The notes below the pieces were generated by a model that worked only from the letters and a program-made list of their open reading frames with translations, had not been told where the DNA came from and did no database searches. From Candidatus Altiarchaeia archaeon (GTDB lineage Archaea > Altiarchaeota > Altiarchaeia > IMC4 > QMZM01): 64,000 nt of DNA. The translations under genes were made by a program, and so were the position numbers. Shown in pieces: positions 14,431-58,874 of this stretch. The stretch is from contig JBAQYF010000031.1 in assembly GCA_049299895.1 (NCBI GenBank), forward strand, positions 96,644 through 160,643, given 5' to 3'. The number at the start of each line of letters is the position of its first letter. Within the stretch, counting starts at the first letter, position 1.

Positions 14431-15720
14431 ATGGAACCTGTTTTACAGCTTGCCCTGGATTACGTAGACAATAGCAGAGCGCTTAAGGCGGCTAAAGAAG
14501 CATCGGCCGGAGTCGACTGGCTCGAAGCCGGGACTCCGCTTATAAAGAGCGAAGGCCTCTCATCCGTAAGAGAGCTACGCAGATTGTTCCCAAAGCACAA
14601 GATCATCGCCGACATGAAGGTCATGGACACGGGTAGATTCGAAGTCGAGGCCGCAGCGAAAGCGGGAGCTGACATCGTAACGGTCCTTGCAGCGGCAGAC
14701 GATTCCACTATCATTGAGGCAGTAGAAGCGGCTAAGAACGTAGGCTGCGAGATAATGGTCGACCTCATAGGGGTCCCTGAACCGGACAACAGAGCAAAGG
14801 AGGTTGAAAAAATGGGCGTTGACTATGTCTGCGTTCATTTGTCGATCGACCAGCAGATGAGGGGAATAGATTTCTTCTCTGAATTGCGAAAAGTTGCAGG
14901 GGCCGTTAATATACCCGTTGCCGCGGCCGGAGGACTTAATACGGAGACTGCGGCTCCGGCAATCAACGCGGGGGCAAGTATAATCATCGTGGGCGGGGCC
15001 ATCACAAAAGCAGAGGATTCGGGCGCCGCTGCAAAGGCGATAAAGAAAGTCATGAAGAGCGGGAAAATCGAAAGCTCCAAACTGTACAAGAAATACACAG
15101 ACCCCCTCAAGGCCTTTTCCATGGTGTCGACGGCCAACATAAGCGATGCCATGCACAGGCTGCCCTGTATGGAAGGAATCAAACAAGTATCGGGCGGAAG
15201 GATATTTGGTCCCGCGGTGACGGTGCGCACATACCCGGGCGATTGGGCGAAACCGGTCGAGGCGATAGACAGCGCCAATGCGGGTGATGTATTAGTCGTT
15301 GACGCAGGCTCAGGGACGGCAGCGGTATGGGGGGAACTTGCATCGCACAGCGCGATCACAAAAAAAGTCGCAGGCATCGTGATAGACGGAGCTGCAAGGG
15401 ACATCGAGGACATAAGGAAATCGGGTTTTTCAGTATATTCAAGGTATGTTTCTCCCAATGCCGGCGAGCCTAAAGGATTCGGGGAAATAAACGTACCTAT
15501 CAGATGCGGCGGCATGTCTGTGCGGCCTGGCGACTACATTATAGGAGACGCCGACGGAGTGATAGTAGTCCCGAAAGAAAAGGCGGTCGAAGTTGCGAAC
15601 AGGGCAGTCGACGTCCTTGAGAGGGAGAACAGATTAAGGGAAGAAATAAAGAAGGGATCAACCCTTGCAAAAATAACGGAATTAAAGAAATGGGAGAAAA
15701 AAGAGGGTTGCTCTCTCTAA
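14431..15720 (+). CDS. Bifunctional 3-hexulose-6-phosphate synthase (OMPDC-fold) / RraA-like protein
   Basis: The N-terminus 'LQLALDY...IIADMKVMDTGR' carries the DxKxxD HPS/KGPDC signature. The C-terminal half, 'GDVLVVDAGSG...GIVIDGAARD', is an RraA/MenG-like fold. 429 aa. Confidence 0.75.
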   Translation: MEPVLQLALDYVDNSRALKAAKEASAGVDWLEAGTPLIKSEGLSSVRELRRLFPKHKIIADMKVMDTGRFEVEAAAKAGADIVTVLAAADDSTIIEAVEAAKNVGCEIMVDLIGVPEPDNRAKEVEKMGVDYVCVHLSIDQQMRGIDFFSELRKVAGAVNIPVAAAGGLNTETAAPAINAGASIIIVGGAITKAEDSGAAAKAIKKVMKSGKIESSKLYKKYTDPLKAFSMVSTANISDAMHRLPCMEGIKQVSGGRIFGPAVTVRTYPGDWAKPVEAIDSANAGDVLVVDAGSGTAAVWGELASHSAITKKVAGIVIDGAARDIEDIRKSGFSVYSRYVSPNAGEPKGFGEINVPIRCGGMSVRPGDYIIGDADGVIVVPKEKAVEVANRAVDVLERENRLREEIKKGSTLAKITELKKWEKKEGCSL

Positions 15721-31860: not shown

Positions 31861-31927
31861 ATATAAAAAACATATATAAATCAGTTATACCTTAATAGTA
31901 ACTGTGCCTTCAGGTGTTAAAAAGATT

Positions 31928-37900: not shown

Positions 37901-38506
37901 GGCCAGGATATCTGGAAACTGTCACCCGAAGGAGTATACAAAGATTACATGTTCTCTATCCAGGAGATTGAAGACAACGCAGAGCAGCAGGAAATGCTGC
38001 GAAACAACCTTGCAGCCCTCGGATATTCAGACATCGCAGAGAAACTCGCGGACGCGCAATACTCAGAGAGCGCAGGGAATAAACTCATAATCACTGGAAA
38101 AATAAGCGCTACCATTGAGGTAGTGGATGGAGTATGTCATATGCTTGTCGGCAACAAAGACATTGTTATCGGAGTTGCAGATTACTTCGGAAGCAAGCTC
38201 CTTGTGTATGAAAACGAGGAGAACAAGCTCCTTGCATACACGATAACAGACGAGAACGGCGTGGCAAAATGCTCTTTTAAGCCGACGGGAACAACGGTCG
38301 GCGGCTCAAGCCCGGGCGGCAACACGTCTTCTCCTTCCTCCGCGAGCACCGGGATACACGTTGTAAGCATCAAGTCCCCGCTCTTTTCCAGGGAGTTCCT
38401 GCTGCTGGGATTAATACTGATATTCGGAGTGTTCTCTTACAGGTATTTCGGAAACAAGAAGATAGATCTGTTCAGCTGGTGGAGGGATTTCAAAGGCAAA
38501 AAATGA
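31928..38506 (+). CDS. Giant (2192 aa) secreted surface protein with vWA domain and C-terminal TM anchor
   Basis: ATG at 31928 (a GTG-initiated ORF runs from 31904). Signal peptide 'LLCISVVFAAFFLSYSGQAFA'. vWA MIDAS 'VFVIDTSGSMDP' near 35165. Very many N-x-S/T sequons. A Ser/Pro-rich linker is followed by a C-terminal TM helix 'LLLGLILIFGVFSY' and a basic tail. Confidence 0.75.
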   Translation: MNRNKRLLCISVVFAAFFLSYSGQAFAELASCSKYQYINVKIAPEDTKNPRLEQFHGIDTGIHDSFIIQGPYNPTYICGIMLNEKLDWSTDSLAAAWAAKGTTIKKDGISIKEDLGENGNGWQLCSDEDCDSNDACRIDVGLIAASGPHCAPYGVSDEKEKSKNSHGAVMVFEQRYMEMASDNGDTSLSVSPTIYRPLYDLLCDAKGYWYACDKESCACVDDYSCGSTSEGKWDFCQYGCDPATGKCKSGEAVKDCSPAEVAVGESLGPFVDSCNIDVTLEGLDQGNNRVTLGPVTYGKDGQKDLLVVDCDGSEQVVTTEEDTGQGEKTCYVTCSGLFYEGNVLKPALEVCYRYPEPEEKEEPKPGPTTTTTTLSETPIPKKDIKPSPPVPVCKPYYEVMTVRGESSDTPEVKEPGECKYTETIEINRSDNCKKIGGDLKDENYKKIDIPVCKATGSVVEEMGKDVIGNPYDFEGERKRRGGVICDGGITDVGWNIQGDEIEISVESMSGANASGDYDDNCEYMVCLYKTNGERIKCGDGLTTQWYARAEEEVFQTNYSSMGLGQFLSLDTLLGWNIDDLGGNFQIELFSRLEGKQPETNIENQTFELCKEGFLTLCTANESEKQFWIFPTNVTKTVYWGVEGSEYSNLATKKEGTNETTWLLNNSRYLMMDLKTCMISDKYGTPNEIKYYTIANDPAYRIYVNESYGNETYYKKYLNMSLDSDYLYCYKTDLRNTSGCDEMNYNWYSFTGYNIDEIGRAYREDLKNWNKNQAVDELSTLDMGRSKVVPVYDPHPCSVSMDKDYYKEQDTITIAYTNTGIECSMALYPWSPDKSAGPVKEWTVYGSGTQNYTLKKEDAPGNYTIVLNCGECYVKDRAYVNVSIIQNVMSRVFTVSPFLEDIRNSLTWTETGDSTLYAGAGFDRYDRCALSCNASDTKFRLLSGCSNARGSDAVACSNCTDEGNCTVDSNGKCPGTKGDCWDQVCRIRSRNYALEAEPGKKGDSFHGVPYNGKCPAGFPKEPIQIDYYTRPADDAMWSVDAGALDQGQVATKCYLDGGVIATTTFDFNSLKDNGPLVDMVFVIDTSGSMDPTWGTLCDIIDQKVVNTLHDAGINLQHYIYGLDKIKKCAKGVIPLHEESWGPGLDWVWENHTGWREGAKRVVIAISDQDGEKGEDNPEWDETKQRSVAGHLISKNIIMNGLFVSGGDPKVQTEMATVSGLTGGITAPFGSAEAVAEKLIEIAKDIKKPVYVVASNATIYMNQTAPNVWVLYQNESQNVSVNVSKTKAKTSNEENPGEAAQTEELNLTVYPSLMIVETANMPFNITYVNITRNGSRYNITRVYVPNETGADYGKEFIVTSKLILNYTLLESAESFTVDLNNSYYTQVRRDIDYVACDYKTCGGGNYMNYTLAPNGRGNTASCGNISSKGEGSIKTYRQETQTEFLEKEYGEVDTLEVDAVSHQNVLCSTLDQLKIEGTFEEYYDPGGNLMIYSASDDPVKITITPDILSGFTFIVNDSAVAYSALYYPARHQLTRKESAPYSDWEWRSLIDKYGYQDQRFGFPEQCKKLCPALRCSCQPNDRLNASCIDFESGSSAKRTDCACVPQECYPDPCVSNRTYHEEEGSVVANGDYETGDLSFWSKTDVGGTADVVLSGHSGYMLKLKGGVQQVLANLSTNPYNKVCIEYALAEYSADGGINLTITVDGKDNSFEVWKNTEECPDCLGWNKKCFPADGYISKVKVESKTLAWIDNINYGKYYDYVGMSTYATVNLEYMDFIAKGWQSFGMLKTSAITHNANTYSFEVESLPRVYMDNRNFQIPKEKVAAILSELAAYSGQESSGEGLTELKKAFAENGVSLNKYVQVEDNNGNWRVINGKRNYDLYRDADGNIKVMGIGYEYATLSEDDYKNGYFVIKTFFKDLYIPMSPNVKQSRTGEDPICYDVDIKFRKPTVLTVDVSPSGYTLTPGTRVTATYTLTYYNGTPVPNQKVYVDLAGQDIWKLSPEGVYKDYMFSIQEIEDNAEQQEMLRNNLAALGYSDIAEKLADAQYSESAGNKLIITGKISATIEVVDGVCHMLVGNKDIVIGVADYFGSKLLVYENEENKLLAYTITDENGVAKCSFKPTGTTVGGSSPGGNTSSPSSASTGIHVVSIKSPLFSREFLLLGLILIFGVFSYRYFGNKKIDLFSWWRDFKGKK

Positions 38507-45012: not shown

Positions 45013-46293
45013 ATGGCAGTAATACCCATACAGGAAGAATCCCAGGCCACGATAGAACAGAAAAGGGAGCAGGAGAAGATAATCAAAGTACAGGGCGGCT
45101 TTTCCCTGGAGCCCCAGACCATAGCAATAACCTTAGTCTCGCTGCTGATAGTGTTCTTCCTCTTCTTTTACACGGGCAACACACTAGACTTCCCCTATGG
45201 CGTGAGGATAGAAATCAGGGTCCTCATACCACTTCTCACGGTCGTCCTGATAGGCCTGATAATCAACAAATCCATCGTCAACTTCATGGAATACGAAAGA
45301 GGAGTCGTATTCAAATGGGGAAAATTCAACAGGATAGCAGGACCCGGCTGGGAAGTGATCTTCCCGCTGATGGAAAGATACATAAAAGCAGACCTGAGAC
45401 TGGAGGTAATAAGCCTCCCACCCCACGAAGTAGTCACAAAAGACAAGGTCCGATTCCTCGTATCCCCGGAGATATTCATGTACGTCTCCAACCCAAAAGA
45501 TGCTATCCTCAACGTCCAGAACTACAAAAAAGCAGTGATACAATACGTAACCAGCGCTCTTACCCACACCCTCGGGGACTCTACGTCGGACTACATAGTC
45601 GCGCACATGAACGAGATATCCGACATGCTCGGGCACGCAGTAGAGCACATAGCAAACACCCCCGGAAAAGAATGGGGCGTGGTCGTTCCCAGGGTGAAAC
45701 TCGCATACATAAGATTCCCGGACGAAGTGCAGTCCGCCATGCACAAAAAAGTAGCAAGCGAGCAGTTGAAACTTGCAGCCCATGAAAAGGCCGAAGCGAT
45801 AAAAACGGAAATAGACGCCATAAGAGAAGCAGGCGGAAAGCTCACCGACCCGGCGCTCACATACATGTACCTGGAATCGCTCGACAAAGTAGCCAAAGGA
45901 AAAGCAACAAAGATAGTACTGCCTCTCGAGATATCCAGAATGGCGGAAAGCATTACAAGGAGAACCAACGGCGCCATGGGAGGGGGCAGAGAAATGAATG
46001 TGCCGCCTGAAATGGTCCAGAGATACTCCGAGATGGTGGACAACTACGACAAAAGACTCAAAGACATAGAGGGCAGGTTAACCAGTTCAGAGGGAAAGGA
46101 AGACCGCAACCGCATGCTCAGAGAGGAATACAAGAAAAAACAGCTGGTAGACAAGACCATAAGAGAGGAAGCCGCACCAAAAGAGAAGCAGGCAGAAACG
46201 CCACGCGAAAAAACGGGCGCAAGCGACGACCGCGAATTGACCGAATACAAAGACAGGATCCGCGAGATAAAGAAAAGAGTGGGAATAGACTAA
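45013..46293 (+). CDS. SPFH/band-7 (stomatin/prohibitin-like) domain protein with C-terminal coiled coil
   Basis: N-terminal TM helix. 'RGVVFKWGKF...GPGWEVIFPLMERYIKADLRLEV...VKLAYIRFPDEVQSAMHKK' is the SPFH core. Confidence 0.8.
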   Translation: MAVIPIQEESQATIEQKREQEKIIKVQGGFSLEPQTIAITLVSLLIVFFLFFYTGNTLDFPYGVRIEIRVLIPLLTVVLIGLIINKSIVNFMEYERGVVFKWGKFNRIAGPGWEVIFPLMERYIKADLRLEVISLPPHEVVTKDKVRFLVSPEIFMYVSNPKDAILNVQNYKKAVIQYVTSALTHTLGDSTSDYIVAHMNEISDMLGHAVEHIANTPGKEWGVVVPRVKLAYIRFPDEVQSAMHKKVASEQLKLAAHEKAEAIKTEIDAIREAGGKLTDPALTYMYLESLDKVAKGKATKIVLPLEISRMAESITRRTNGAMGGGREMNVPPEMVQRYSEMVDNYDKRLKDIEGRLTSSEGKEDRNRMLREEYKKKQLVDKTIREEAAPKEKQAETPREKTGASDDRELTEYKDRIREIKKRVGID

Positions 46294-46296
46294 ACG

Positions 46297-46563
46297 ATGG
46301 AAAAACTGGACACAGACAACATATACGTAGACGAAGAAGAGAACTATGTAGCAATCAGAGTGAATACTAAGATATTCAAGATACATTCCATAATGAATGC
46401 CGCGGACGAATTCCTGGAGGAGTCCAACTTTATAGTGGACGGAGACCCTGAAAAGGACATAATAGTAAAATTCGTCCCTAAAAGACGATTCAACCGCCAG
46501 CAGCTCGCGGACCTCGCCCACAAGTTCTGCACCCTGCTCGTCACATTCAGTTCAACCAGGTGA
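46297..46563 (+). CDS. Hypothetical small protein (88 aa)
   Basis: An ORF starting 3 nt after the SPFH stop. No recognisable motifs. Confidence 0.35.
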   Translation: MEKLDTDNIYVDEEENYVAIRVNTKIFKIHSIMNAADEFLEESNFIVDGDPEKDIIVKFVPKRRFNRQQLADLAHKFCTLLVTFSSTR

Positions 46564-46573
46564 AAGAAAAAAA

Positions 46574-47188
46574 ATGTCTCTGCAAGAGGAACTAAAAAAA
46601 CTGGATTACAAAGGGATAGGAATACTTTTGATAATAGGCCTCGTCCTGGGAGTAATATACGGCGCCTTCTTTATCAATAATATCTTTTTCGGGATAGTCG
46701 CAATGGTAATAGCAGTCTTCGGAAGCTACTTTGTACTCTCGTCATTCTTCGAAGAAGATAAGCCGGAGAAGCTGGAACCAGGAGAGAAGATGATACTGCG
46801 CACCATGGACAGGGCGTACATACTGTTCCCGAAAAAAGGGGGTTTTCTTACCGCCCAGTCAGAAAGAGACCTTTCAGTATACCTGACGGACAGGAGGATT
46901 TTTGCGAAAAAATCGTCCGAGAAAGTCATATTTGAAAAGAACATAAGCGCGCTTTCCAGAGTCTCCACCGAAAAGAGAATGCTGACGAAATATCTGCGCC
47001 TAAGGTATTACTTGGAAGGAAAAGAAAAAGACGCGCTCCTCTTCGTCGGGGACACAGACATATGGATCAGGAGACTGGGCGAACTCGGAGTAAAAGAAAA
47101 AGACGCATACGAGTCGGACAAAGAGGAAGACAATAGTTTCGTGGAAGACGCAACCAGCCTGAAGAGCAAAGTAATGAAAAAGAAATAG
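46574..47188 (+). CDS. Membrane protein with bacterial-PH-like (YdbS/YdbT-type) domain
   Basis: Two N-terminal TM helices. The 'GEKMILRTMDRAYILFPKKGGFLT...LYLTDRRIF' pattern resembles bPH_2 domains. Confidence 0.4.
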   Translation: MSLQEELKKLDYKGIGILLIIGLVLGVIYGAFFINNIFFGIVAMVIAVFGSYFVLSSFFEEDKPEKLEPGEKMILRTMDRAYILFPKKGGFLTAQSERDLSVYLTDRRIFAKKSSEKVIFEKNISALSRVSTEKRMLTKYLRLRYYLEGKEKDALLFVGDTDIWIRRLGELGVKEKDAYESDKEEDNSFVEDATSLKSKVMKKK

Positions 47189-47197
47189 CAGACAGAC

Positions 47198-47884
47198 ATG
47201 AAAATAAAAAAATCCCGCCCAGACAGACGAATAATGCTCGCATTGATAATACTGATTACCGCATGCTGCCACACAGCCGCCGCCCAATCCGCAACGAGCA
47301 CAACCACGACTACACCCTCATCAGGAGGCTCAGACCTTGAACAATCAGGCTTTACAAAGGCGACCTGCACGTGCAAATGCAACGAAAAGAACATAAGCGC
47401 CGTAGGCATACTGAAGGCGGGAGCGTGGGAGAAGATTATATCCGTTGAACAGAACACCGCAGCAGGCAAATGCCAGGAGCAATGCGCGAAAACGTGCGGC
47501 GGAAGGACTACCTGCGCCAACCAGTCTGATTCGGATTGCAGCACATGCTGCGATACGTTCTGCACGAGCAGCTACAGCGGAGAAGCCGGAACAAGCACGG
47601 CAGCAGGCAAAACGCCGACCGATTTATGCAAAACATCATGCAAGAGCACGTGCAAATTCAAGGGAACCATAAACGGCATAACCGGCATAATATACATGAT
47701 AGCAGGGATGCTGGGCGCGCTCATGATAGCAATTCACGGGATAAGGATGGTAACGTCCCAGGACCCCCACGACAGGGACGCTGCAAAAAGCAGCATACTC
47801 CATGTGATAATAGCGTTGATCATAATTGCGATGGCTTCGGCGCTGGTCAACATGTTCATAACCATGGGGGGCTTGGAGATATAA
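47198..47884 (+). CDS. Small secreted Cys-rich protein with C-terminal helix-loop-helix membrane hairpin (pilin-like topology)
   Basis: Signal peptide, a Thr-rich linker 'ATSTTTTTPSSGG', ~20 Cys in ~100 aa, then two hydrophobic helices separated by 'HGIRMVTSQDPHDRDAAKSS'. Confidence 0.55.
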   Translation: MKIKKSRPDRRIMLALIILITACCHTAAAQSATSTTTTTPSSGGSDLEQSGFTKATCTCKCNEKNISAVGILKAGAWEKIISVEQNTAAGKCQEQCAKTCGGRTTCANQSDSDCSTCCDTFCTSSYSGEAGTSTAAGKTPTDLCKTSCKSTCKFKGTINGITGIIYMIAGMLGALMIAIHGIRMVTSQDPHDRDAAKSSILHVIIALIIIAMASALVNMFITMGGLEI

Positions 47885-47912: not shown

Positions 47913-49841
47913 CTAAAACGCCGCTTTCATGATAACGTATCCGTCGGACACCAACTTATCAATGATGTACTTGATGGCTGCAGGAGTAAGCTTTGTCTCC
48001 CGGGCAAGGTCATCGAGGCTCTTTTTACCGTCCACTTTTTCCATGATCTTTATTATCTGAGGATACTTGGCGTATTTCAATTTATCCATGAACCCTATTT
48101 TTTTCTTAAGCTGCGGAACATCCATCGGAGGGAGGGGCGGAGGCTGAGCCTGCGCAACGAGCAAAGCCTCAGTCACTTCCTCTTTTTTGATCACTATCTC
48201 CCGGGCATCCGCGGCCTGCTTCTTGATTTCTTCTCTCAGCAGTGCGCATTGAGCCAAAGGCGTTTTTGACTTGAGGGGCGCGACTGTTCCAGTTATTTCA
48301 TCCGGCTTCTTTTCAGAAGAGACCGGGGCATCCGCACCATCTATCCCCACAAAACGCTTCTTTCTCTTGTCCCAGCCCCAGTATACGTCTACTTCTTTTT
48401 TGAGGTCGCTTATCTCAGAGGAAGTCTTCTCATCCCATTCTTCTCCGGATGCTTCCTTGATCTTTTCTATAATGGATTCCTGATCCAGTGACGAGGAAAC
48501 GCCCGCCTCCAGATCGTCCCGGTTAGAAACATCCTGAGGGGGCGCACTATCCAAAGGAGGGGATTCAGCCTGCTTGACCGCTTCGCTATCCGTATTCGGG
48601 ATATCCCCAGGCCTGGGCGCAGCGACTACTCCTTCCAGCTTCTTCTTTTTCAGCCTCTGAAGGGTCGCATTCGCCCTTGCAAGCCATTGATCAGAAGGAG
48701 CCGGGGGGGAATGATCCACCGGAGCCTCCTCCGCAGCAGGCTGAAGCTTCTCATCGGGCATAGAATCATTCATAGGCGCAGAGACGGCATTTTCCGATAA
48801 TCGATTATGATTTCTACCCAGTATTGCATCTCTTACCCGCTCATTGAAATCGTCCGACAAGGTCTTATCAGATGAGGCAGTCTCTGCTTTCTGCTCCTTG
48901 GTATCCGCCCCGTGAAAAACCCCCTGAAGCTCCCGGCGTAATTGCACGGTCTCGGAAGACTCCTGAACATTCGACTGCGCATCTATCTTCTTTTCCCCGT
49001 CCTTTTCTTCCTGCCCGCTCCCGGGAACAGAACCGGAGGATATCTTCTCCCAGGGATCCTCGCGCAGGATCATCTCATCAAGGCTTTTTTCATCAGAAGA
49101 ACCGGATTCATCCGTCTTTACAGGACCATTATAAGACTTCCTCTCAGGACCCGCGTTTCCGGAGGGATGCCCGGACTGCGCAGGCGACGTCCCTTTAGAA
49201 GGCGCCTGTATACCTATCTCCTTGACGGCCTGAACCCCGGAAGAAAGAACGCCCGCATTATCGGACCCCTCTCCCTGCGAGCGATTAACAGCCCCGCCAG
49301 TCACCGTTTCACTGGAACGATCCTTTAGGTCGGCGTTTAATATCATCTCCAGATAAGGCTTTTCACGCTCCTCAAACTGCTTCCACTTGGCCTCAAGCTC
49401 CTTCCACTGGCTCTCAAGGTCGACGAGGCCTTCTTTGCGTATGTCCTCATCCACATGGCCTATCTCTTCCAGTGTCTTTCCCAGGTTTCTCACCAGTTCC
49501 AGGAGGATTGATTCATTTGCGGCAACGTATGGCTTGAATTCAGAATCCGCAAGCTCGTATACGGCAAACCCGCCTGATGACTCTTTGATAAGGTCCACTA
49601 AACCCAAAAATGCTTTTTCTCCGAGTAATTGCGCCCCGTCTTCGGAGCACGCAATGGAGGCGCCTATAATAAAGCCGTTCTGCAAGACCAGATCAGACTC
49701 ATACGTTTTTTGCTCCCGGAGCATCCTGACCCGGACCACGCCCTTAAAACTCTCCGGAAGGTCTCTTAGCATAGACCCTATGTTCTTCAGGTCTCCTGCC
49801 GCAATTCTCTTCTCCAATGAAAAATCCATTTTCGGATTCAT
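47913..49841 (-). CDS. Hypothetical protein: structured N-domain + ~400-aa disordered region + C-terminal winged helix
   Basis: ATG at 49841 (a TTG-initiated ORF runs to 49865). Low-complexity S/E/P/K-rich centre. The C-terminal 'DDLARETKLTPAAIKYIIDKLVSDGYVIMK' is wHTH-like. Confidence 0.5.
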   Translation of the reverse strand: MNPKMDFSLEKRIAAGDLKNIGSMLRDLPESFKGVVRVRMLREQKTYESDLVLQNGFIIGASIACSEDGAQLLGEKAFLGLVDLIKESSGGFAVYELADSEFKPYVAANESILLELVRNLGKTLEEIGHVDEDIRKEGLVDLESQWKELEAKWKQFEEREKPYLEMILNADLKDRSSETVTGGAVNRSQGEGSDNAGVLSSGVQAVKEIGIQAPSKGTSPAQSGHPSGNAGPERKSYNGPVKTDESGSSDEKSLDEMILREDPWEKISSGSVPGSGQEEKDGEKKIDAQSNVQESSETVQLRRELQGVFHGADTKEQKAETASSDKTLSDDFNERVRDAILGRNHNRLSENAVSAPMNDSMPDEKLQPAAEEAPVDHSPPAPSDQWLARANATLQRLKKKKLEGVVAAPRPGDIPNTDSEAVKQAESPPLDSAPPQDVSNRDDLEAGVSSSLDQESIIEKIKEASGEEWDEKTSSEISDLKKEVDVYWGWDKRKKRFVGIDGADAPVSSEKKPDEITGTVAPLKSKTPLAQCALLREEIKKQAADAREIVIKKEEVTEALLVAQAQPPPLPPMDVPQLKKKIGFMDKLKYAKYPQIIKIMEKVDGKKSLDDLARETKLTPAAIKYIIDKLVSDGYVIMKAAF

Positions 49842-49851
49842 CTCTCGCTGT

Positions 49852-50571
49852 TCATTCAGGGTCAAGCAATATCACGCCCTCAAAGGGATCTATTTTGAAA
49901 GGGATCAATACCTCATCCCGACCGCAGTCGCCCCACGCCATCTTGGGTAGGGTAAGGTATTCCTGGAGTATCACTTTATCTTCAACGGCTTTAAGCGCGA
50001 CAACTGCGTCGGAGAGTTCTTCCAGACGCTCCAGAACACGCAACTCATAAGGCCACTCCGTGAAAAGGAATACCCCTGTCGCATTGTTCTTCCGGAAAAG
50101 ATTCTTCCAGGAAAGAAACTCATCCAGCGATTCACTGCCGCATTGATCTATGAGCGTGGAAACTGAGTCATAAACGACGAGGGTATGATTGTTACCTGCA
50201 CTTGCGAGCGCGCCCTCAAGCGCCTTGGTTATGGAACACACATCCTTTGGATTCTTAACCTTGAACCGGCCGGACGGCGTTGCCCTGACGAGCCCCGAAT
50301 AGGCATCCACGAATATGAGCCGGTTGCCCCGCACATACCTGGCGGCATCCCAGCCGAATGAACGCATCTCGTATTCAACCGACGAAATATTCTTGCAGCA
50401 CGTAACGTAAACGCATGAATCACCCTCTTTGAGAGCCTCCACTGCTATCCTGTAAGCAAAAGGCGAGTTCTGCACGCCGGGATACGCCCACAATGTAGTA
50501 ATAGTATTATGGCGCAAACCCCCGTCCAGGAATTCATCCAGCCTCAAGATATTAGTCTTTCGAACACCCAT
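49852..50571 (-). CDS. KaiC/RecA-superfamily domain protein with degenerate Walker A (likely ATPase-dead)
   Basis: 'LDEFLDGGL...TLWAYPGVQNSPFAYRIA' matches the KaiC-like N-terminus, but the GxxGxGKT motif is replaced. 'RSFGWDAARYV' is KaiC-like. Confidence 0.6.
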   Translation of the reverse strand: MGVRKTNILRLDEFLDGGLRHNTITTLWAYPGVQNSPFAYRIAVEALKEGDSCVYVTCCKNISSVEYEMRSFGWDAARYVRGNRLIFVDAYSGLVRATPSGRFKVKNPKDVCSITKALEGALASAGNNHTLVVYDSVSTLIDQCGSESLDEFLSWKNLFRKNNATGVFLFTEWPYELRVLERLEELSDAVVALKAVEDKVILQEYLTLPKMAWGDCGRDEVLIPFKIDPFEGVILLDPE

Positions 50572-50847
50572 AACAAACCCCGCAAACGTGCAACAAAAAA
50601 GCGGTGCTTATTAACCTTTACACGTCTGAGAATATATACGTTTTCCAAACTGAACCGCGTGGTTTCCAACCACCCAGTTCCAAGTGCAGGTCACACCTGC
50701 ATGCCCCTACGGCGCACCTCCCTGACCCCCCCAGGTACTGTCTTCGCACGGCTCGACAACACTACCGTTATTCCAGGGGATACATAAAAAAGGCTTAGAG
50801 ATAGATATTTCCGGACTTGCATCTCAACATTTCTTATCCACAAGGAG

Positions 50848-51774
50848 TTATAAAAAATGCTCGTAGCCCTTTTTCTCCAGAGAACTCTCCGATCCATCCG
50901 ATACCAAAACAACACCCTGCCCGCCTACGACGCCTATCTCGGTCGTGTCTATTTTACGTTTGACCTTATCGTAATGTCTCTTTGGGATAGTGTATACAAG
51001 TTCGTAATCCCCGCCCCCGCATAGGGCGGAGTCCAGAGCGGATAAGCCCATCTTTCCCGCAAGCTTACGCGTGGATTCGGATACGGGAATCTGGTCCGCG
51101 AATACCTTTAATCCCACGCCGCTCATAGATGCAAGATCATGCAGGCATGTTGAAAGGCTGTCGGAGGTATCCGTGAGAGCGTTCGCGTATTTCCCGATGA
51201 CCAGTCCCTCCCTTACACGCGCTATGGGGGTAGTGGCCTTTTTCACCGCATCTTCATCCCCGGCTAAACGCTTGCCTGATAGCAGGACGCCGACTCCGAG
51301 GGATGCTGCTCCCAGGGCCCCTGTGACGGCGATGATATCTCCCCTTTTTGCTCCAGACCTGTGAACAGGCCTCTTTGTCTTTCCCACGCAGAAGCCGGAC
51401 AACGTCAATGCATCAGCTTCCTTGGTGTCTCCTCCGACGTATCTTGCACCGTACGCCCTGCATTGCTTTTCCGCGGCCCGCAGCATACGATCAAGATAAT
51501 CATATTCCAGCCCCCTCGACAGGCCGCATGCCATCAGGAACGCAACAGGCTTTGCCCCCATCGCCGCTACGTCGCTTACGTTGACGCTGACTATGAAGCG
51601 CCCGACCCCTTCAGGAGTCATGCCGGGGAGTATGTGCGTCTTCTGATATAGCATGTCGGTTGTGAGCACCAGGTACTCATCGCCGTGCCTTATGCATGCT
51701 GCGTCATCCCCGACGTCCAGGAATGAACCAAGCCGCTTTATCACTTCCTTTTCCCCCAGTTCGGATAGTTTCAT
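50848..51774 (-). CDS. thiL: Thiamine-monophosphate kinase (AIR-synthase-related family)
   Basis: 'VGDDAACI', 'TTDMLYQKTH' and 'GGDTKEAD' are ThiL-type motifs. 308 aa. Confidence 0.7.
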   Translation of the reverse strand: MKLSELGEKEVIKRLGSFLDVGDDAACIRHGDEYLVLTTDMLYQKTHILPGMTPEGVGRFIVSVNVSDVAAMGAKPVAFLMACGLSRGLEYDYLDRMLRAAEKQCRAYGARYVGGDTKEADALTLSGFCVGKTKRPVHRSGAKRGDIIAVTGALGAASLGVGVLLSGKRLAGDEDAVKKATTPIARVREGLVIGKYANALTDTSDSLSTCLHDLASMSGVGLKVFADQIPVSESTRKLAGKMGLSALDSALCGGGDYELVYTIPKRHYDKVKRKIDTTEIGVVGGQGVVLVSDGSESSLEKKGYEHFL

Positions 51775-51818: not shown

Positions 51819-53378
51819 ATGAAATTTGATACTAAAGACATCAAGAGCAGGGCAAAAGAGGACTTCGAGAAGACCTGGCTGGACACTGCGAAACTCCTGC
51901 CCGAGAAGAGCACAAAAGATTATTCCGGAGGAATCGGAAAAATCCATCCACTGCATTCACTGATACAGGATGTTCGAAAGATGTTTATTTCAGTCGGATT
52001 TTCCGAGATAGAAAACCCAGTCTACGTCCCGGAAGAAGAGGTCTACTGGCAGTATGGCCCCGAGGCGCCGGTCATACTGGACAGGTGCTACTATCTTGCA
52101 GGCCTCCCCCGCCCGGACATAGGCCTGGGGAAAACCGAGACTGAAAAGATCCACGCGATAAACCAGGAGATAAAGATCGAAAAAGTCAAGGAACTCCTGA
52201 GGGGCTACCGCGAGGGACTGATAGAAGGCGACAACCTATTGGAAGATATGGTAAACGATCTAGGCATTTCCACGGCGGAAGCGGCAAAAATCATAGACAT
52301 ATTCCCGGCCTTCAGAGAACTAAAAGCCGTCGCCGAGAAGACGACGCTCAGATCCCATATGACCGCTGCATGGTTTCCAACGCTTAAAGCACTCGCGGAA
52401 AAAGAGGAAATGCCTCTGCGCCTGTTCTCTATAGGCCTGCGGTTCAGAAGGGAGCAGAAGATGGATGCCACTCATTTGCGCGCGCATTACGGGGCCTCCT
52501 GTGTCATCATGGATCCCGACATAAGTCTTTCTGCAGGAAAGAAAGTTTCGGAGAAGATGATAGAGCGGCTGGGATTCAAGGACATCAATTACGTCATAAA
52601 GAAAGCGACTGCCAATTACTATGCCCCGGGTATGGAGTATGAGATATTCTCAGGGAACGTGGAGGTCGCAGACTGCGGCATGTATTCTCCCGTCGCTCTC
52701 TCCAATTACGGGATAGAATACCCTGTTTTCAATATCGGATTCGGCCTGGAGCGCATACTCATGATCAAAAAGAGACAGACGGACGTACGCGAACTCATGT
52801 ACCCGCAGTTCTACAAGGTATTATCTTTCACCGACAAGGAACTCATAGAACAGATAGCAATCGAGCGCAAACCCCGGACTGAAGAAGGGAAAGAACTTGC
52901 AGTCAATATAACCGAGGTCGCCCGCAAAAACGCCAACGCCGGCTCCCCATGCAAATACGCAGCATATGAAGGAAAATTCATGGGAAAAGACATCATAGTC
53001 CATGTCATGGAAAAAGAGGACGGAACAAAGCTCCTGGGCCCTGCGGCACTGAATAACATATACGCATACCAGGGCGGAATATACGGCCTGCCCAAAGATA
53101 TGAGCGCCCTGAAAAAGGATCTCCCGGATGTCTTGGAAAAAGGAGCTATCGCATCCTTCGGTTTCCTCGACGCGCTCTCCAACCGCTTCGCATCCGACAT
53201 AGAAGACTCAATAAATAGGGGCCAGACCTCGGGGATATTCGCCTCCAAGATGGCCAAGACCCCGGGAGAGATAAACATATCAGTGTCAGATGCCGCCAGA
53301 AGATTCATAGGCGGCAAGAACCAGCCGATCGCCCTGAAAGGGCCTGTTTTTATGTCCGTCGAGTTCATGCTTAAATAA
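51819..53378 (+). CDS. sepS: O-phosphoseryl-tRNA(Cys) synthetase (SepRS)
   Basis: Close block-by-block similarity to methanogen SepRS: 'HPLHSLIQDVRKMFISVGF', 'LRSHMTAAWFPTLKAL', 'RLFSIGLRFRREQKMDATHL', 'CGMYSPVALSNYGIEYPVFNIGFGLERILM'. Confidence 0.85.
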   Translation: MKFDTKDIKSRAKEDFEKTWLDTAKLLPEKSTKDYSGGIGKIHPLHSLIQDVRKMFISVGFSEIENPVYVPEEEVYWQYGPEAPVILDRCYYLAGLPRPDIGLGKTETEKIHAINQEIKIEKVKELLRGYREGLIEGDNLLEDMVNDLGISTAEAAKIIDIFPAFRELKAVAEKTTLRSHMTAAWFPTLKALAEKEEMPLRLFSIGLRFRREQKMDATHLRAHYGASCVIMDPDISLSAGKKVSEKMIERLGFKDINYVIKKATANYYAPGMEYEIFSGNVEVADCGMYSPVALSNYGIEYPVFNIGFGLERILMIKKRQTDVRELMYPQFYKVLSFTDKELIEQIAIERKPRTEEGKELAVNITEVARKNANAGSPCKYAAYEGKFMGKDIIVHVMEKEDGTKLLGPAALNNIYAYQGGIYGLPKDMSALKKDLPDVLEKGAIASFGFLDALSNRFASDIEDSINRGQTSGIFASKMAKTPGEINISVSDAARRFIGGKNQPIALKGPVFMSVEFMLK

Positions 53379-53450
53379 GGACAATATTTAAATACTGGAG
53401 CCCTAATATTAAACAGTATTCTACATATTAGGTAATCTTATATAATAAAG

Positions 53451-56400
53451 ATGAAAACAGTCCTCCAAGTATCCCTTAACTCCCTCGACCTGCAGGAAGC
53501 GCTCAGCATAGCGGAAAAAGCCGCAAACGAGGGGATCACCTGGATAGAGGTTGGAAGCAGCCTGATAAAAGCAGCAGGCCTCGCCGCCGTAACCGAACTA
53601 CGCAAAAGATACCCCAACGCCAGGATAACTGCGGACATGAAGATAATCCATTCCCCGGAAGAAGTCTCCGCCGTCGCAGACGCAGGCGCAGACATAATGA
53701 TGTTCTTTTCCGGAACAGACGAAGGATTGGTCCGCGAATGCGTAAAAGCCGCCAAGGCCGCCGATATCGAGCTGATGGCAGACATCTACACAAGCGTTTT
53801 TCCAACCGGAGACGCAAAGAGATTCGAGGACCTCGGAGTAAACTACTTGTTCACAAGGTCCCAAGACCTGAAAAACGTAGCTTCTTCCGTACGGATACCC
53901 GTAGCCGTGCCTATTGGAAGAGACCCTGAAGCCGCCAAAAAGGCCGTCGAAAACGGAGCAAAAATACTCAACATAAGCGACTTTCCGAAAAGGGAGAGAA
54001 TAAACAACTTTTTGGATAGAGTCCCCGGGCTACATGAGGGGGAAGATACAAAGCCGGAACCCACATACCCAAAAACCGCACCCGCAAATAAACAGATCCC
54101 TTATACAACAGCCCCAACGCCCGCTAAAGCCGCATCATCCGAATCACTTGGTTCTGCCCCGGTCCTGTCCGAATTCGAAAGACTCAACCAGCTATTCCTG
54201 AACCTCGAAGAAAAACGCAAGATAGAGGAAAACAAGAGGATACTCCTGGAAAGGAATATCGAGAACAAAGAAAAAGAGCACCGAGAGATACTGGAAAACG
54301 AAAGGAAACGAGTGGATGAGGAGATAGCAAAGATAGAATCGGAAAAAGAGGACATACGCAGATACCGGGAAAAACTGGAAAAAGATTCCGCTGAAACAGA
54401 ACAGCAAAGAAAACGCATAGTAGAAGAATGGGGAAGGATAAAGCAGGCCGAGATATCGTTCGAAGACACCCAGAAGCGCAAGCTGGAAGAATACAACGCC
54501 AAAAAAGAAGAGATCTGGAAGAAATGGGAAGAAGACCAGAAAAAGAGATGGATGAACGCATCCGCGGAAATAGATGAAGAAAAGAAGAAGACAGAAGCCC
54601 GATGGGCTGACCTGGAGGACCTCGGGAAGAGAATAGACGCAGAAAAAAAGAAACTAGAAGAACAAAATGCGTCAATCAGCCAGGACAAGTCCGAAACAGA
54701 AAAGAGATTCCAGGAAGTGGCGAATCTGCGCAAACTACATGAAAGCAACCTTGCACTGCTGGAGGAGGACAGAAGGCAGATAGAGGAGCAGAAAAAATAC
54801 ATCGAAGAACAGAAAAAATACGTAGACGAACAGAAAGCCTCTTTCGACAGCAAATGGAACGAATACAAGGCGGGGCTGGAAGCAAACCTTGAAGAACAGA
54901 AAAAAACGCTGGAAGCTCAAAAACTCATCCTGTCAGAGGAAAAACTGCAGGTAAAATCAGAAAAACAGGACATAGAAAAACTAAAGCTGGACGTTTCCGA
55001 AGAGCTGGAAAAAGCAAGAAAGAAAAGAGAGGAAGCAGAAGAACTGCAAAGACAGGCTGCCGAAGAACGAAACAGGATAGAAGAAAGGATAACGGAAGAG
55101 CAAAAGAAGCTGGAAGAAAAACTGTCCGCAGAGCAGAAAAAAATAGAAGACCGCCAAATAGAGATAGAAGCAAGAGAAGAAGAAGCCTACAAGGCCGCGG
55201 AGATAATCGAAAAAGCCAAGAGCATAACCCAGGAAATGCTCATGGTAGAAGAAGAGGCAAGGAAGGCGGAACAGAAATGGAAGGAAGTGTCCCAGGCGGA
55301 AAAAAGGATCCGGGAAACGGAAAGAAAGATAGACGAGCAACAGAGAAACAGAAAACAAGAACTACAGGAACTGGAGAAGGAACGCTGGATGCTCCATGAC
55401 GAACTCAAAAAGATAGAGAACAACTGGACCACGCTCGCCGAGATAGAGAAAAAACAGGAAGAAGAAAAGAGGATACTCGACCAAGAGCGCGCGGAAAACG
55501 CGGAACACAGAAAGTGCATAGAGGAAGAATTCAAAAAGATCGAAGGGCAGGAAAAAGAGCGTAAGGACTCCGAAGGCGTATTCGAGCAAGCGCAGCAGGG
55601 GAAGCTGAAGGAATACCAAAAGAAAAACGAAGAAGCCTGGAACGCCTGGGAAGGAGACCAAAAGAAGATATGGAGAGAAGAATTCGAAAAGATCGAAAAC
55701 GAACGCAAAAAGCTCGAATTAGAAAAAGCCGAACTCAAAACAAAGGTTGCACAGATACAACTTGAATCCTGGAAAACCGCGGAAGAGTCGCAAAAGATAG
55801 AGAAAAAACTTTCCCTGGCAGAAGAAAAAGAGAAGATAACAGAAGACAACCTAAGGAGAATCACTGAAAAAGAGTACAGCCAAAGGGAGCTGATAGAAGA
55901 GATAGAAAAAGAGCGCTGGAGAATACACGACGAACTGCAGAAGGTCGAGAAAAGCTGGGCTTCCATCAAGGAGATAGAGAAAAAATACGAAAAAGACAAG
56001 GAGTCCATCGTAAAAGACCGCCTGTTCATCGAAGAACAGAAAAAGAAACTCGAGGCAGACGAACGGAACCTGGAAGAGGAATACGCCAAACTCAAATCGG
56101 AGTTGGAATCGTTCGAGAACCAAAAGAGAAACCACCTCGAAAGCCTGCGGGAGAGAGAAGAAGAACTGTCCGGGATACACGGAAAGACTGATGAAGGGGC
56201 CTTGCGGCGCAGGGAAGAGATTGAGTGCATAGAGAAGGAGCGCTGGAAAATAGACGCAGAAACGCGCAGCATAGAAGCCAAATGGGCGCAGGTAAAGGAA
56301 TCAGAGAAAAAGCTTGAAACAGACAGGAACAGCATAGCGCAGGAAAGAGAATACCTCGACGAGATAAAGAAGAAGATAGAGGATGAAGCAATCAAACTCG

Positions 56401-58874: not shown

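What the first reader, a model, noticed from the sequence alone, without database searches (positions are those of the whole stretch)
53451..58874. HPS-like (OMPDC-fold) domain fused to a 1600-aa E/K-rich coiled coil with periodic ERWKL motif
The first ~190 aa align block-for-block with the HPS domain of the 14431-15720 gene (LQxxLD, W-E-G-LIK, ADMK). The DxKxxD signature reads D-M-K-I-I-H, so the last Asp is replaced and the domain may be catalytically altered. A Pro/Thr/Ala linker joins it to one uninterrupted ORF of highly charged heptad repeats with a recurring 'IE(K/Q)ERWKLxDEQKKLE' unit every ~110 aa. A metabolic TIM-barrel fused to a giant filament-forming coiled coil has no obvious precedent. 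It may be a scaffold or cytoskeleton-like protein with a recruited or moonlighting enzyme head.
Basis: seen in the sequence. Interest (0 to 1): 0.65.

Follow-up and report, generated by a model that had tools for sequence, protein, structure and literature searches.

The report
Dead-enzyme head on giant helical rod
This is a real, conserved 1807-residue protein of Altiarchaeales archaea that joins a degenerate, probably inactive copy of the sugar-phosphate enzyme HPS to a highly charged alpha-helical rod of up to about 230 nm built from ~109-residue units; it belongs to an undescribed lineage-specific family that is probably structural, with no function yet shown.

Summary
Window 53451-58874 (+) is one uninterrupted 1807-aa ORF. 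It has an HPS/OMPDC-fold (beta/alpha)8 head (res 1-190), a disordered Pro/Thr/Ala linker (197-239) and a 1568-aa E/K/R-rich helical rod. The rod carries 11 'IEKERWKL.DEQKK' motifs, mostly 109 aa apart.

The fusion is not an artefact. Two independent Altiarchaeales contigs carry continuous orthologs of 1451 and 1741 aa in the same SepRS / gene / DUF1616 synteny. A third, long-read contig differs only by 1-nt frameshifts. Shorter relatives (540-675 aa, head + W-motif helix + usually a C-terminal winged-helix-like domain) also lie at or near SepRS in other Altiarchaeales. All named members are 'hypothetical protein'.

The head is a degenerate HPS paralog. Asp67, the His136 loop and both phosphate loops are gone here, and Glu33/Lys64 are lost across the family.

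The rod is not a canonical a/d coiled coil. Its heptads read h-EEE-KKK, with one hydrophobic position and an acidic 'd'. That places it between tropomyosin and a charged single alpha-helix.

Both parts are under purifying selection (dN/dS 0.12 and 0.20). Rod length changes by whole-unit indels.

Most likely it is a cytoplasmic spacer or tether with a pseudoenzyme head. Its function and oligomeric state are inferred, not shown.

The parts
53387..53413 (+). Conserved AT-rich intergenic elements (TTTAAATA at 53387-53394, TAATATTAAA at 53404-53413). These are the likely archaeal TATA-type promoter of the gene.
   Evidence: They are nearly invariant in four orthologous loci even though coding-region synonymous sites are near saturation. 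The promoter function is inferred.
53451..58874 (+). Whole gene: one 1807-aa ORF made of pseudo-HPS head, linker and charged helical rod.
   Evidence: Continuous orthologs of 1451 aa and 1741 aa exist.
53451..54020 (+). Head, residues 1-190: a complete (beta/alpha)8 barrel of the HPS/KGPDC/OMPDC suprafamily with degenerate catalytic residues.
   Evidence: Pfam PF00215 scores 54 bits. AlphaFold2 predicts 8 strands with pLDDT above 90. Foldseek top hits are HPS 9lj9 and 3ajx (TM 0.83) and KGPDC. Residue losses are shown.
54039..54167 (+). Disordered Pro/Thr/Ala-rich linker, residues 197-239.
   Evidence: pLDDT is below 50. It is only 33% identical to L003, against 78% for the head. Its length varies among orthologs.
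54168..58871 (+). Alpha-helical rod, residues 240-1807 (1568 aa, net charge -43, about 233 nm if fully helical). Its heptads are of the h-EEE-KKK type.
54408..54560 (+). Family-conserved Trp-rich segment EEWGRIKQAEISFEDTQKRKLEEYNAKKEEIWKKWEEDQKKRW (residues ~320-370). It is shared with the short-form relatives.
55371..58733 (+). Array of 11 'IEKERWKL.DEQKK' units, residues ~641-1761, typically 109 aa each.
57195..58085 (+). Rod units (residues ~1249-1545) that are missing from the L003 and L001 orthologs but largely present in L094. This is a rod-length polymorphism by whole-unit indels.
   Evidence: alignment. These units are 50-60% identical to one another. L094 motif spacing is given.
58827..58871 (+). 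C-terminal family motif DDLKILEEEHTKKKK (the DLxxLKxEHxK motif). In short-form relatives it precedes a winged-helix-like domain that is absent here.
14431..15720 (+). Canonical-looking paralog: an HPS-RraA-type bifunctional protein with intact DxKxxD, His loop and GG loops.
   Evidence: NCBIfam PRK07028 scores 588.8 bits and TIGR03128 scores 231.6 bits against a cutoff of 200. See also the alignment.
51819..53378 (+). Upstream neighbour: an O-phosphoseryl-tRNA synthetase-like class II aaRS. Its position next to the gene is conserved across the family.
58933..60753 (+). Downstream neighbour: a 606-aa polytopic DUF1616 membrane protein, 58 nt away on the same strand. It is conserved only in the long-form clade.

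Best explanation
The gene encodes a cytoplasmic structural protein specific to Altiarchaeales. Its N-terminal domain is a duplicated 3-hexulose-6-phosphate synthase that keeps the TIM-barrel fold but has lost the catalytic and phosphate-binding machinery. It is therefore a pseudoenzyme. It most likely serves as a folded dimerisation or docking head, since this suprafamily forms obligate dimers.

A disordered linker connects the head to a very long, highly charged alpha-helix. The helix's heptads have a single hydrophobic position followed by three acidic and three basic residues. That pattern stabilises the helix through i/i+4 salt bridges and leaves a one-residue hydrophobic seam plus a conserved Trp motif every ~109 residues.

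The rod acts as a semi-rigid spacer or tether. Its length is tuned by gain and loss of whole units: about 50 nm in the common short forms and about 180-230 nm in this clade.

What is shown: the gene is real, the fold, the residue losses, the helicity, the periodicity, the family and its synteny, and purifying selection.

What is inferred: loss of enzyme activity, dimerisation through the head, cytoplasmic location, and the spacer/tether role.
For: - The ORF is continuous here and in two independent contigs. The split in L001 is due to 1-nt indels, and the downstream frame still encodes the conserved protein.
- The head has the HPS fold. AlphaFold2 gives pLDDT above 90 with 8 strands. Foldseek top hits are HPS and KGPDC.
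- The catalytic inventory is largely lost. Asp67 is His here and Arg in the orthologs. The His136 equivalent is Thr or Val, with a 12-aa loop deletion. The phosphate loops 'AGG' and 'VGGAI' are replaced. In family members the DMK triad reads DMD, DTD, DIS, NMS or NLG, and Glu33 is A, G, S or C.
- An intact HPS paralog exists in the same window.
- The rod is predicted as long uninterrupted helices with pLDDT 80-94.
- Heptad position a is 88% L/I/V, b-d are 46-58% acidic and e-g are 36-48% basic.
- Rod-wide, the second core position is hydrophobic in only 12-21% of heptads.
- i/i+4 opposite-charge pairs make up 0.203 of positions, against 0.141 +/- 0.008 in shuffles.
- Purifying selection acts on the head (dN/dS 0.12) and on the rod (0.20).
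- Unit-wise indels separate the orthologs.
- The family and its position next to or near SepRS are conserved. The own promoter region is conserved.
- There is no signal peptide or TM segment in the sequence.
Against: - There is no expression or biochemical data.
- In this clade Glu33, Asp62 and Lys64 are retained and the head is strongly constrained. Residual metal or ligand binding, or a changed chemistry, is therefore not excluded.
- The oligomeric state is unresolved. The primary hydrophobic stripe (67%) is as strong as in tropomyosin, hydrophobic periodicity peaks at 3.52 residues, and some segments have a/d-like pairs. Partial two-stranded coiled-coil formation is possible.
- Only monomer predictions were available.
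- dS is about 1-1.6 and near saturation, so the dN/dS values are rough.
- The spacer/tether role is an inference from anatomy. No partner has been identified.
Confidence: 0.6

Rival explanations
1. The protein is a canonical two-stranded coiled-coil, filament-forming cytoskeletal protein. The rod dimerises in register along its length and assembles into filaments, as crescentin, FilP or intermediate filaments do.
For: Hydrophobic periodicity of 3.52 residues lies above the shuffles (power 2.98 against 1.41, the largest power seen in 200 shuffles at the three heptad harmonics 1/7, 2/7 and 3/7). The primary heptad stripe is 67% hydrophobic, similar to tropomyosin at 0.71. Some Trp-containing segments have a/d-like spacing. 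The head belongs to an obligately dimeric suprafamily (established knowledge).
Against: The second core position is hydrophobic in only 0.25 of heptads (0.32 with Ala), against 0.43 (0.78) in tropomyosin. In the ERW units, 'd' is 58% Asp/Glu. The flanking e and g positions are both basic, which would be repulsive in a parallel homodimer. There is no Pfam filament or coiled-coil family hit.
Confidence: 0.2
2. The protein is an active or regulatory sugar-phosphate enzyme or sensor tethered to a scaffold. The head still binds or converts a RuMP-pathway metabolite and the rod localises it.
For: Glu33, Asp62, Lys64 and Asp111 are retained in the long-form clade. Head dN/dS is 0.12. The barrel is complete.
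Against: The Asp67 and His136 equivalents and both phosphate-binding loops are lost. The position of the lost Asp varies (H or R) even among close orthologs. Lys64 and Glu33 are not conserved in the wider family. HPS equivalog models score 86 bits against a cutoff of 200. A canonical HPS paralog is present.
Confidence: 0.1
3. The protein is a nucleoid or partner tether. As in the short forms, it links a DNA- or protein-binding end to the head. Here the winged-helix end has been lost or replaced by another interaction, for example with the co-oriented DUF1616 membrane protein.
For: Short-form relatives end in a ~60-aa domain whose only (sub-threshold) matches are Lrp- or MarR-type winged helices (E 0.18-0.6). 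DUF1616 lies 27-58 nt downstream on the same strand in all four long-form loci.
Against: No winged-helix sequence is found anywhere in the window. The winged-helix assignment itself is below significance. The DUF1616 linkage is restricted to one clade, and co-transcription has not been shown.
Confidence: 0.1
4. The gene is an assembly or sequencing artefact, or a decaying pseudogene. The head and rod would really be separate genes, or the rod would be non-coding low-complexity sequence.
For: In L001 the head is called as a separate 214-aa gene followed by a 1055-aa gene. In L002 the reading frames are scrambled.
Against: Three independent assemblies give continuous ORFs. After its 1-nt insertion, L001 encodes the conserved 'VENGAKILNISDFP...' in the shifted frame, and it has a second frameshift near the C-terminus, which is typical of long-read indel errors. 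dN/dS is 0.12-0.27 in the head and in every rod segment compared. There are no recent DNA tandem repeats.
Confidence: 0.02

Closest known systems
[quoted passage not shown]
   Same: Both have the (beta/alpha)8 fold. The best PDB sequence and structure matches are 9lj9, 3ajx, 3f4w and 1kv8. The blocks LQV.L, WIEVG..LIK..GL, ADMK and AGAD are retained. The head is 38% identical to the genome's own HPS domain.
   Different: The third residue of DxKxxD is His or Arg. The His136 equivalent and its HxxxDxQ loop are deleted. The phosphate-binding GG loops are replaced. It scores far below the equivalog cutoffs. Catalytic Lys and Glu are not conserved across the family. It is fused to a 1568-aa rod.
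Known HPS fusion proteins: HPS-PHI, Fae-HPS and HPS-RraA-like (NCBIfam PRK07028)
   Same: An HPS-type barrel sits at one end of a multidomain protein. The head is closest to the PRK07028-type HPS (124 bits).
   Different: Those fusions join two enzymes or enzyme-like domains of one pathway. This one joins a degenerate barrel to a non-enzymatic helical rod. The survey of archaeal fusion proteins that was consulted discusses HPS only as the Hps-Phi fusion. It was searched only for the terms 'hexulose', 'coiled-coil' and 'Altiarchae' (PMC11237513).
Charged single alpha-helix (ER/K, CSAH) domains, e.g. the myosin VI and myosin X lever extensions and caldesmon
   Same: E+K+R make up about 49% of the rod. 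i/i+4 opposite-charge pairs are enriched. Charge periodicity is about 7 residues. AlphaFold2 predicts long isolated helices. Both are easily mistaken for coiled coils.
   Different: This rod is about 10-20 times longer than described SAH domains. It also carries a periodic Trp motif.
Long coiled-coil structural proteins: tropomyosin, bacterial crescentin/FilP/Scy, and the SMC/Rad50 arms
   Same: It is a very long helical rod with heptad phasing and stutter-like phase shifts (109 = 15x7+4). It has quasi-repeat units, as tropomyosin does.
   Different: The second core position is mostly acidic. It has no ABC ATPase head or hinge. SMC models score 15-17 bits against cutoffs of 567-729. No Pfam family matches the rod.
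Spectrin repeat (~106 aa, conserved Trp)
   Same: The unit length of about 109 aa and a conserved Trp in an 'ERW..L' context resemble the helix C 'ERW..L' of spectrin repeats (a resemblance recalled from memory).
   Different: There is no PF00435 hit at E <= 1. AlphaFold2 predicts helices of 148 and 184 residues that run through unit borders, with no three-helix bundles. The resemblance is rejected.

Membership tests
OMP decarboxylase / HUMPS suprafamily (Pfam PF00215) | Pfam gathering score reached | tested here: met
   54.3 bits against a cutoff of 27, over residues 4-115 only.
OMP decarboxylase / HUMPS suprafamily (Pfam PF00215) | (beta/alpha)8 barrel fold | tested here: met
   AlphaFold2 gives 8 strands and 8 helices with pLDDT above 90. 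Foldseek probability is 1.00 to HPS, KGPDC and OMPDC, with TM up to 0.83.
3-hexulose-6-phosphate synthase (TIGR03128 / PRK07028 equivalogs) | Curated equivalog score | tested here: not met
   TIGR03128 scores 86 bits against 200. PRK07028 scores 124 bits against 593.
3-hexulose-6-phosphate synthase (TIGR03128 / PRK07028 equivalogs) | DxKxxD signature (KGPDC Asp62, Lys64, Asp67) | tested here: not met
   It reads D-M-K-I-I-H here, with R in L001 and L003. In other family members the DMK triad reads DMD, DTD, DIS, NMS or NLG.
3-hexulose-6-phosphate synthase (TIGR03128 / PRK07028 equivalogs) | Catalytic His (KGPDC His136) in the HxxxDxQ loop after beta-6 | tested here: not met
   A 12-residue deletion removes the loop. 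The aligned residue is Thr135, and Val in the orthologs.
3-hexulose-6-phosphate synthase (TIGR03128 / PRK07028 equivalogs) | Phosphate-binding Gly loops after beta-7 and beta-8 (AGG, VGGAI) | tested here: not met
   The sequence is 'AVPIGRD' and 'ILNISDF' in place of 'AAAGGLN' and 'IIVGGAI'.
3-hexulose-6-phosphate synthase (TIGR03128 / PRK07028 equivalogs) | HPS catalytic activity | not testable with these tools
   This needs an enzyme assay on the purified head.
Canonical two-stranded coiled coil | Both a and d heptad positions predominantly hydrophobic | tested here: not met
   Position a is 67-88% hydrophobic. Position a+3 is 12% and a+4 is 21%. In the ERW units 'd' is 58% acidic. The tropomyosin control gives 0.71/0.43, or 0.95/0.78 with Ala.
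Canonical two-stranded coiled coil | Heptad (3.5-residue) hydrophobic periodicity | tested here: met
   The peak is at 3.52 residues with power 2.98, against 1.41, the largest power seen in 200 shuffles at the three heptad harmonics 1/7, 2/7 and 3/7.
Canonical two-stranded coiled coil | Dimeric state | not testable with these tools
   Only monomer structure prediction was available.
Charged single alpha-helix (ER/K / CSAH) | High E/K/R content with enriched i/i+4 opposite-charge pairs and ~7-residue charge periodicity | tested here: met
   E+K+R is 49%. The pair fraction is 0.203 against 0.141 +/- 0.008. The charge spectrum peaks at periods 6.85-7.25 with power 6.4, against a shuffle maximum of 5.1.
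Charged single alpha-helix (ER/K / CSAH) | Absence of a conserved hydrophobic seam; monomeric in solution | tested here: inconclusive
   A conserved one-residue seam is present. The monomeric state cannot be tested here.
Spectrin repeat (PF00435) | Pfam match and a three-helix bundle per ~106-aa unit | tested here: not met
   There is no hit at E <= 1. AlphaFold2 helices span the unit borders.
SMC / Rad50-type proteins | ABC ATPase head halves at both termini, plus a hinge | tested here: not met
   TIGR02169 scores 17 bits against 729 and TIGR02168 scores 15 bits against 567, both confined to the rod. The termini are a TIM barrel and a short charged tail.

The most novel reading that the evidence does not exclude
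The ~109-residue units, each with an invariant IEKERW(K/M)L.DE patch on a continuous helix, would place docking sites about 16 nm apart. On this reading the protein is a molecular ruler or side-binding protein, analogous to tropomyosin or nebulin, for a periodic cellular structure of the double-membraned Altiarchaeales. The pseudoenzyme head would be the anchoring end, and unit number would set a cellular dimension. Such a structure would be a previously unknown archaeal cytoskeletal system.
Probability: 0.1. Interest if true: 0.8.

Novelty: new variant of a known kind. Interest (0 to 1): 0.5.

Why it matters
Altiarchaeales are uncultivated, double-membraned subsurface archaea whose cell biology is almost unknown. 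This family is conserved across the order's sampled genomes, is under purifying selection, and keeps a fixed genomic position next to or near SepRS. It has nevertheless never been named.

It offers a clear case of a central-metabolism TIM barrel recruited as a non-catalytic head.

It also offers a natural alpha-helix of about 1570 residues whose heptads sit between a coiled coil and a charged single helix. That would be by far the longest SAH-like element if it is monomeric.

Finally, it shows rod length varying by whole-unit gain and loss (about 50 to 230 nm). This makes a testable handle on whether archaea use helical rulers or tethers.

Tried and rejected
- **Spectrin-like repeats.** The 109-aa unit and conserved Trp suggested this. 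It is rejected: there is no Pfam hit, and AlphaFold2 helices run through the unit borders.
- **SMC, Rad50, LmuB or HmpF relationship.** Only weak, compositionally biased hits appeared, far below the cutoffs.
- **Defence-system membership.** PADLOC gave nothing for the window protein.
- **Winged-helix domain elsewhere in the window.** tblastn with four family C-termini found nothing.
- **DNA-level tandem repeats in the rod.** Only two trivial 15- and 21-bp arrays were found, so the units are old.
- **Word-indexed protein searches with rod or family profiles.** These were swamped by E/K-rich candidates and returned almost nothing new. The exhaustive HMMER search was what revealed the family.
- **Pseudo-alignment of repeat-shifted rod segments for AlphaFold2.** MAFFT simply overlaid the overlapping parts, so the rod was folded from a single sequence.
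- **Foldseek against AFDB50.** The library was unavailable.
- **Literature searches.** Searches for Altiarchaeum/Altiarchaeota with 'coiled-coil' or 'cytoskeleton', and for HPS with 'coiled-coil', found no description of this protein.
Full report
**1. The observation**

Window 53451-58874 (+) is a single ATG-to-stop ORF of 1807 codons.

Head. The first ~175 residues align with the HPS domain of the 14431-15720 gene at 38% identity (E 4e-33), with one 12-residue gap. They pass the Pfam OMPdecase threshold (54 bits against 27). They score only 86-124 bits on NCBIfam HPS equivalogs, whose cutoffs are 200-593. The first block is LQVSLN rather than LQxxLD.

Rod. It is 23.6% Glu, 16.5% Lys and 8.7% Arg. 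It carries 11 copies of an IEKERWKL.DEQKK-like motif. Nine of the ten spacings are 79-111 residues (five at 108 or 109, one at 111), and one is 177.

**2. Is the fusion real?**

The closest database protein, P0001, is a stand-alone 214-aa head from a 103-kb contig (L001). That contig has the same gene order: SepRS, head, a 1055-aa gene, DUF1616. Taken at face value this would refute the fusion.

The DNA alignment shows a single extra base in L001. After it, the +1 frame reads 'LVENGAKILNISDFP...' and runs without a stop into the rod. A second frameshift lies near the C-terminus. L001 belongs to a MAG named MFD04492.bin.2.19 with Flye-style contig names, so long-read indel errors are the likely cause. 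That last step is an inference.

Two other assemblies carry uninterrupted orthologs:
- L003, Ca. Altiarchaeales nzgw1: 1451 aa.
- L094, a JGI metagenome contig: 1741 aa.

Both are flanked by SepRS and/or DUF1616. The fusion is therefore real and conserved, and the organism is an Altiarchaeales archaeon.

**3. A wider family**

An exhaustive HMMER search of 1.84 billion representative proteins with a head-plus-rod-start profile was run. It found about a dozen proteins, many of 540-675 aa, that match through both parts.

They share:
- the degenerate head;
- a 'L.NIK.IL..LE.QR' helix start;
- E.EW..I motifs;
- a 'DLL.LK.EH.K' motif;
- in most of the full-length (597-675 aa) members, a C-terminal ~60-residue domain.

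The only hits for that C-terminal domain, all sub-threshold, are Lrp- or MarR-type winged helices. The window protein ends exactly at the DDLKILEEEHTKKKK motif. No winged helix is encoded anywhere in the window.

Every labelled member is 'hypothetical protein' from Ca. Altiarchaeales: ex4484_43 and ex4484_96.

In five further loci the gene again follows or lies close to SepRS. AIRS, a KaiC-like ATPase (often fused to an Arf/Ras-like GTPase), DUF2226 and Roadblock/LC7 genes lie divergently upstream. The window keeps AIRS, KaiC-like and DUF2226-wHTH genes at 47913-51774.

The 80-nt region upstream of the ATG, with TTTAAATA and TAATATTAAA boxes, is almost invariant in four loci. This suggests the gene has its own promoter.

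**4. The head**

AlphaFold2 with a 17-sequence alignment gives a complete eight-stranded barrel (pLDDT above 90), a disordered linker (197-239) and one helix from 239 to 479. Foldseek places the head with HPS (9lj9, 3ajx, 3f4w), KGPDC and OMPDC.

The residues below are mapped through the HMMER and BLAST alignments. KGPDC residue numbers come from established knowledge of 1kv8/1kw1.

| KGPDC position | State in this protein and family |
|---|---|
| Glu33, Asp62, Lys64, Asp111-equivalent | Retained in this clade |
| Asp67 | His here, Arg in close orthologs |
| His136 | Thr or Val, and its HxxxDxQ loop is deleted |
| Gly-rich phosphate loops after beta-7 and beta-8 | Replaced |
| Lys64 in the wider family | D, R, S, I, M or G |
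| Glu33 in the wider family | A, G, S or C |

The residues invariant across the family are L38, G43, G79, D81, Y132, P150 and G169. Their positions, and the fact that they are mostly Gly, Pro and hydrophobic residues, suggest structural rather than catalytic roles. This was not tested here.

The same window encodes an intact HPS-RraA-type paralog (588.8 bits on PRK07028).

The head is best read as a pseudoenzyme retained for its fold. This suprafamily forms obligate dimers with shared active sites (established knowledge), so a dimerisation or docking role is the natural inference. It was not tested here.

**5. The rod**

A single-sequence AlphaFold2 run on residues 1195-1530 gives two helices of 148 and 184 residues (mean pLDDT 86.6) with one two-residue break. 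There are no three-helix bundles.

Hydrophobic periodicity peaks at 3.52 residues. The heptad anatomy, however, is unusual. In the nine heptads after each ERW motif, pooled over 24 units from three orthologs:
- position a is 88% L/I/V;
- positions b, c and d are 46-58% acidic;
- positions e, f and g are 36-48% basic.

Over the whole rod, the best-phased position is hydrophobic in 67% of heptads. The a+3 position is hydrophobic in 12% and a+4 in 21%.

| Sequence | LIVMFWY only | Counting Ala |
|---|---|---|
| Tropomyosin | 0.71 / 0.43 | 0.95 / 0.78 |
| Myosin VI SAH region | 0.33 / 0.11 | 0.33 / 0.11 |
| This rod | 0.67 / 0.25 | 0.72 / 0.32 |

Opposite-charge i/i+4 pairs are enriched by 8 SD. 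Charge periodicity is about 7 residues.

The rod is thus a 'half-core' heptad helix. It is stabilised like a charged single alpha-helix but carries a conserved one-residue hydrophobic seam and a periodic Trp patch. The heptad phase jumps at each unit border (109 = 15x7+4). Fully helical, 1568 residues correspond to about 233 nm.

No Pfam, NCBIfam or PADLOC family describes the rod.

**6. Evolution**

Compared with L003:

| Region | Amino-acid identity | dN/dS |
|---|---|---|
| Head | 78% | 0.12 |
| Rod | 62% | 0.20 |
| Linker | 33% | not computable (pS too high) |

dS is about 1-1.6, so these ratios are rough.

The orthologs are collinear. Most of the length difference between them is whole-unit insertion or deletion, placed at or near the ERW motif. 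About three units (residues ~1249-1545) are present here and largely in L094 but absent from L003 and L001. Their mutual identity is 50-60%, against 25-45% for other unit pairs. No DNA-level tandem repeat is detectable. Rod length is therefore evolutionarily adjustable, while the sequence of each unit is constrained.

**7. Interpretation**

The best-supported reading is a cytoplasmic structural spacer or tether. It has a folded, probably dimeric, catalytically dead HPS-like head, a flexible linker, and a very long semi-rigid charged helix whose length varies by unit number.

The rivals, each given with confidence in its own section:
- a canonical coiled-coil filament;
- a still-active or ligand-sensing head;
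- a nucleoid or membrane tether, based on the short forms' winged helix and the co-oriented DUF1616 gene;
- an artefact.

The artefact reading is effectively excluded. The oligomeric state and the partner are the main unknowns.

**8. Novelty**

The building blocks are known kinds: an OMPDC-fold barrel, a pseudoenzyme, and an ER/K-like helix or coiled coil. The combination, the family and the rod's length and heptad type were not found in any curated library or paper searched. I rate it a new variant of a known kind. It is moderately interesting now and would be highly interesting if the periodic motif proves to be a ruler for a cellular structure.

Noticed in passing
window 31904-38506 (+): A 2200-aa ORF with an N-terminal signal-like hydrophobic segment, a C-terminal TM anchor, Cys-rich regions and a vWA-like 'VFVIDTSGSM' motif. 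It has no Pfam hit at E <= 0.001. It is probably a giant cell-surface protein.
   Followed up: partly
window 47913-50571 (-); L084, L088, L090, L092: A conserved divergent neighbourhood lies upstream of AIRS/SepRS. It contains a KaiC-like ATPase (in other Altiarchaeales fused to an Arf/Ras-like small GTPase), DUF2226 and 2-3 Roadblock/LC7 genes. In the window the DUF2226 protein is 650 aa, with long disordered acidic regions and a C-terminal HTH_24 winged helix. This is a possible archaeal small-GTPase/Roadblock module.
   Followed up: partly
window 14431-15720 (+): An HPS-RraA-type bifunctional protein scores 588.8 bits on PRK07028, just under the curated cutoff of 593. It is the likely evolutionary source of the degenerate head.
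   Followed up: partly
window 45013-47884 (+); L001 2166-5280: An SPFH/Band_7 protein is followed by small ORFs and a TrbC/VirB2-type 'T4SS pilin' domain protein. The arrangement is conserved in L001. A conjugation-type pilin is unexpected in an archaeal chromosome.
   Followed up: no
L001 10560-10575 and near 13900: The Altiarchaeales MAG MFD04492.bin.2.19 has at least two 1-nt frameshifts in the ortholog. Gene callers therefore split it into 214-aa and 1055-aa proteins. Public protein databases hold the truncated, frameshift-tailed head (P0001).
   Followed up: yes
L002 3429-5400: In Ca. Altiarchaeales ex4484_43 the family gene is broken into several frames, with near-duplicate 'KRKLEEYKAKRE.IWKK' segments. 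This looks like repeat-induced misassembly or decay. The winged-helix-like C-terminus is still readable in another frame.
   Followed up: partly
window 58933-60753 (+): A DUF1616 polytopic membrane protein (606 aa) lies 58 nt downstream on the same strand in the window. DUF1616 also follows the gene on the same strand in the other three long-form loci (27 nt in L003). In a short-form locus (L088) a PMT/GT-C-type glycosyltransferase occupies the convergent position. The functional link has not been tested.
   Followed up: no
window 53370-53450: The intergenic region between SepRS and the gene is more conserved than the coding sequence across four loci. It has two AT-rich TATA-like boxes.
   Followed up: partly
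P0041 (532 aa): One relative has the degenerate head and a short W-motif helix fused to a C-terminal HATPase_c_4 ('RecG C-terminal'-like, Pfam E 4e-26) region instead of the rod and winged helix. The head therefore occurs in more than one architecture.
   Followed up: no
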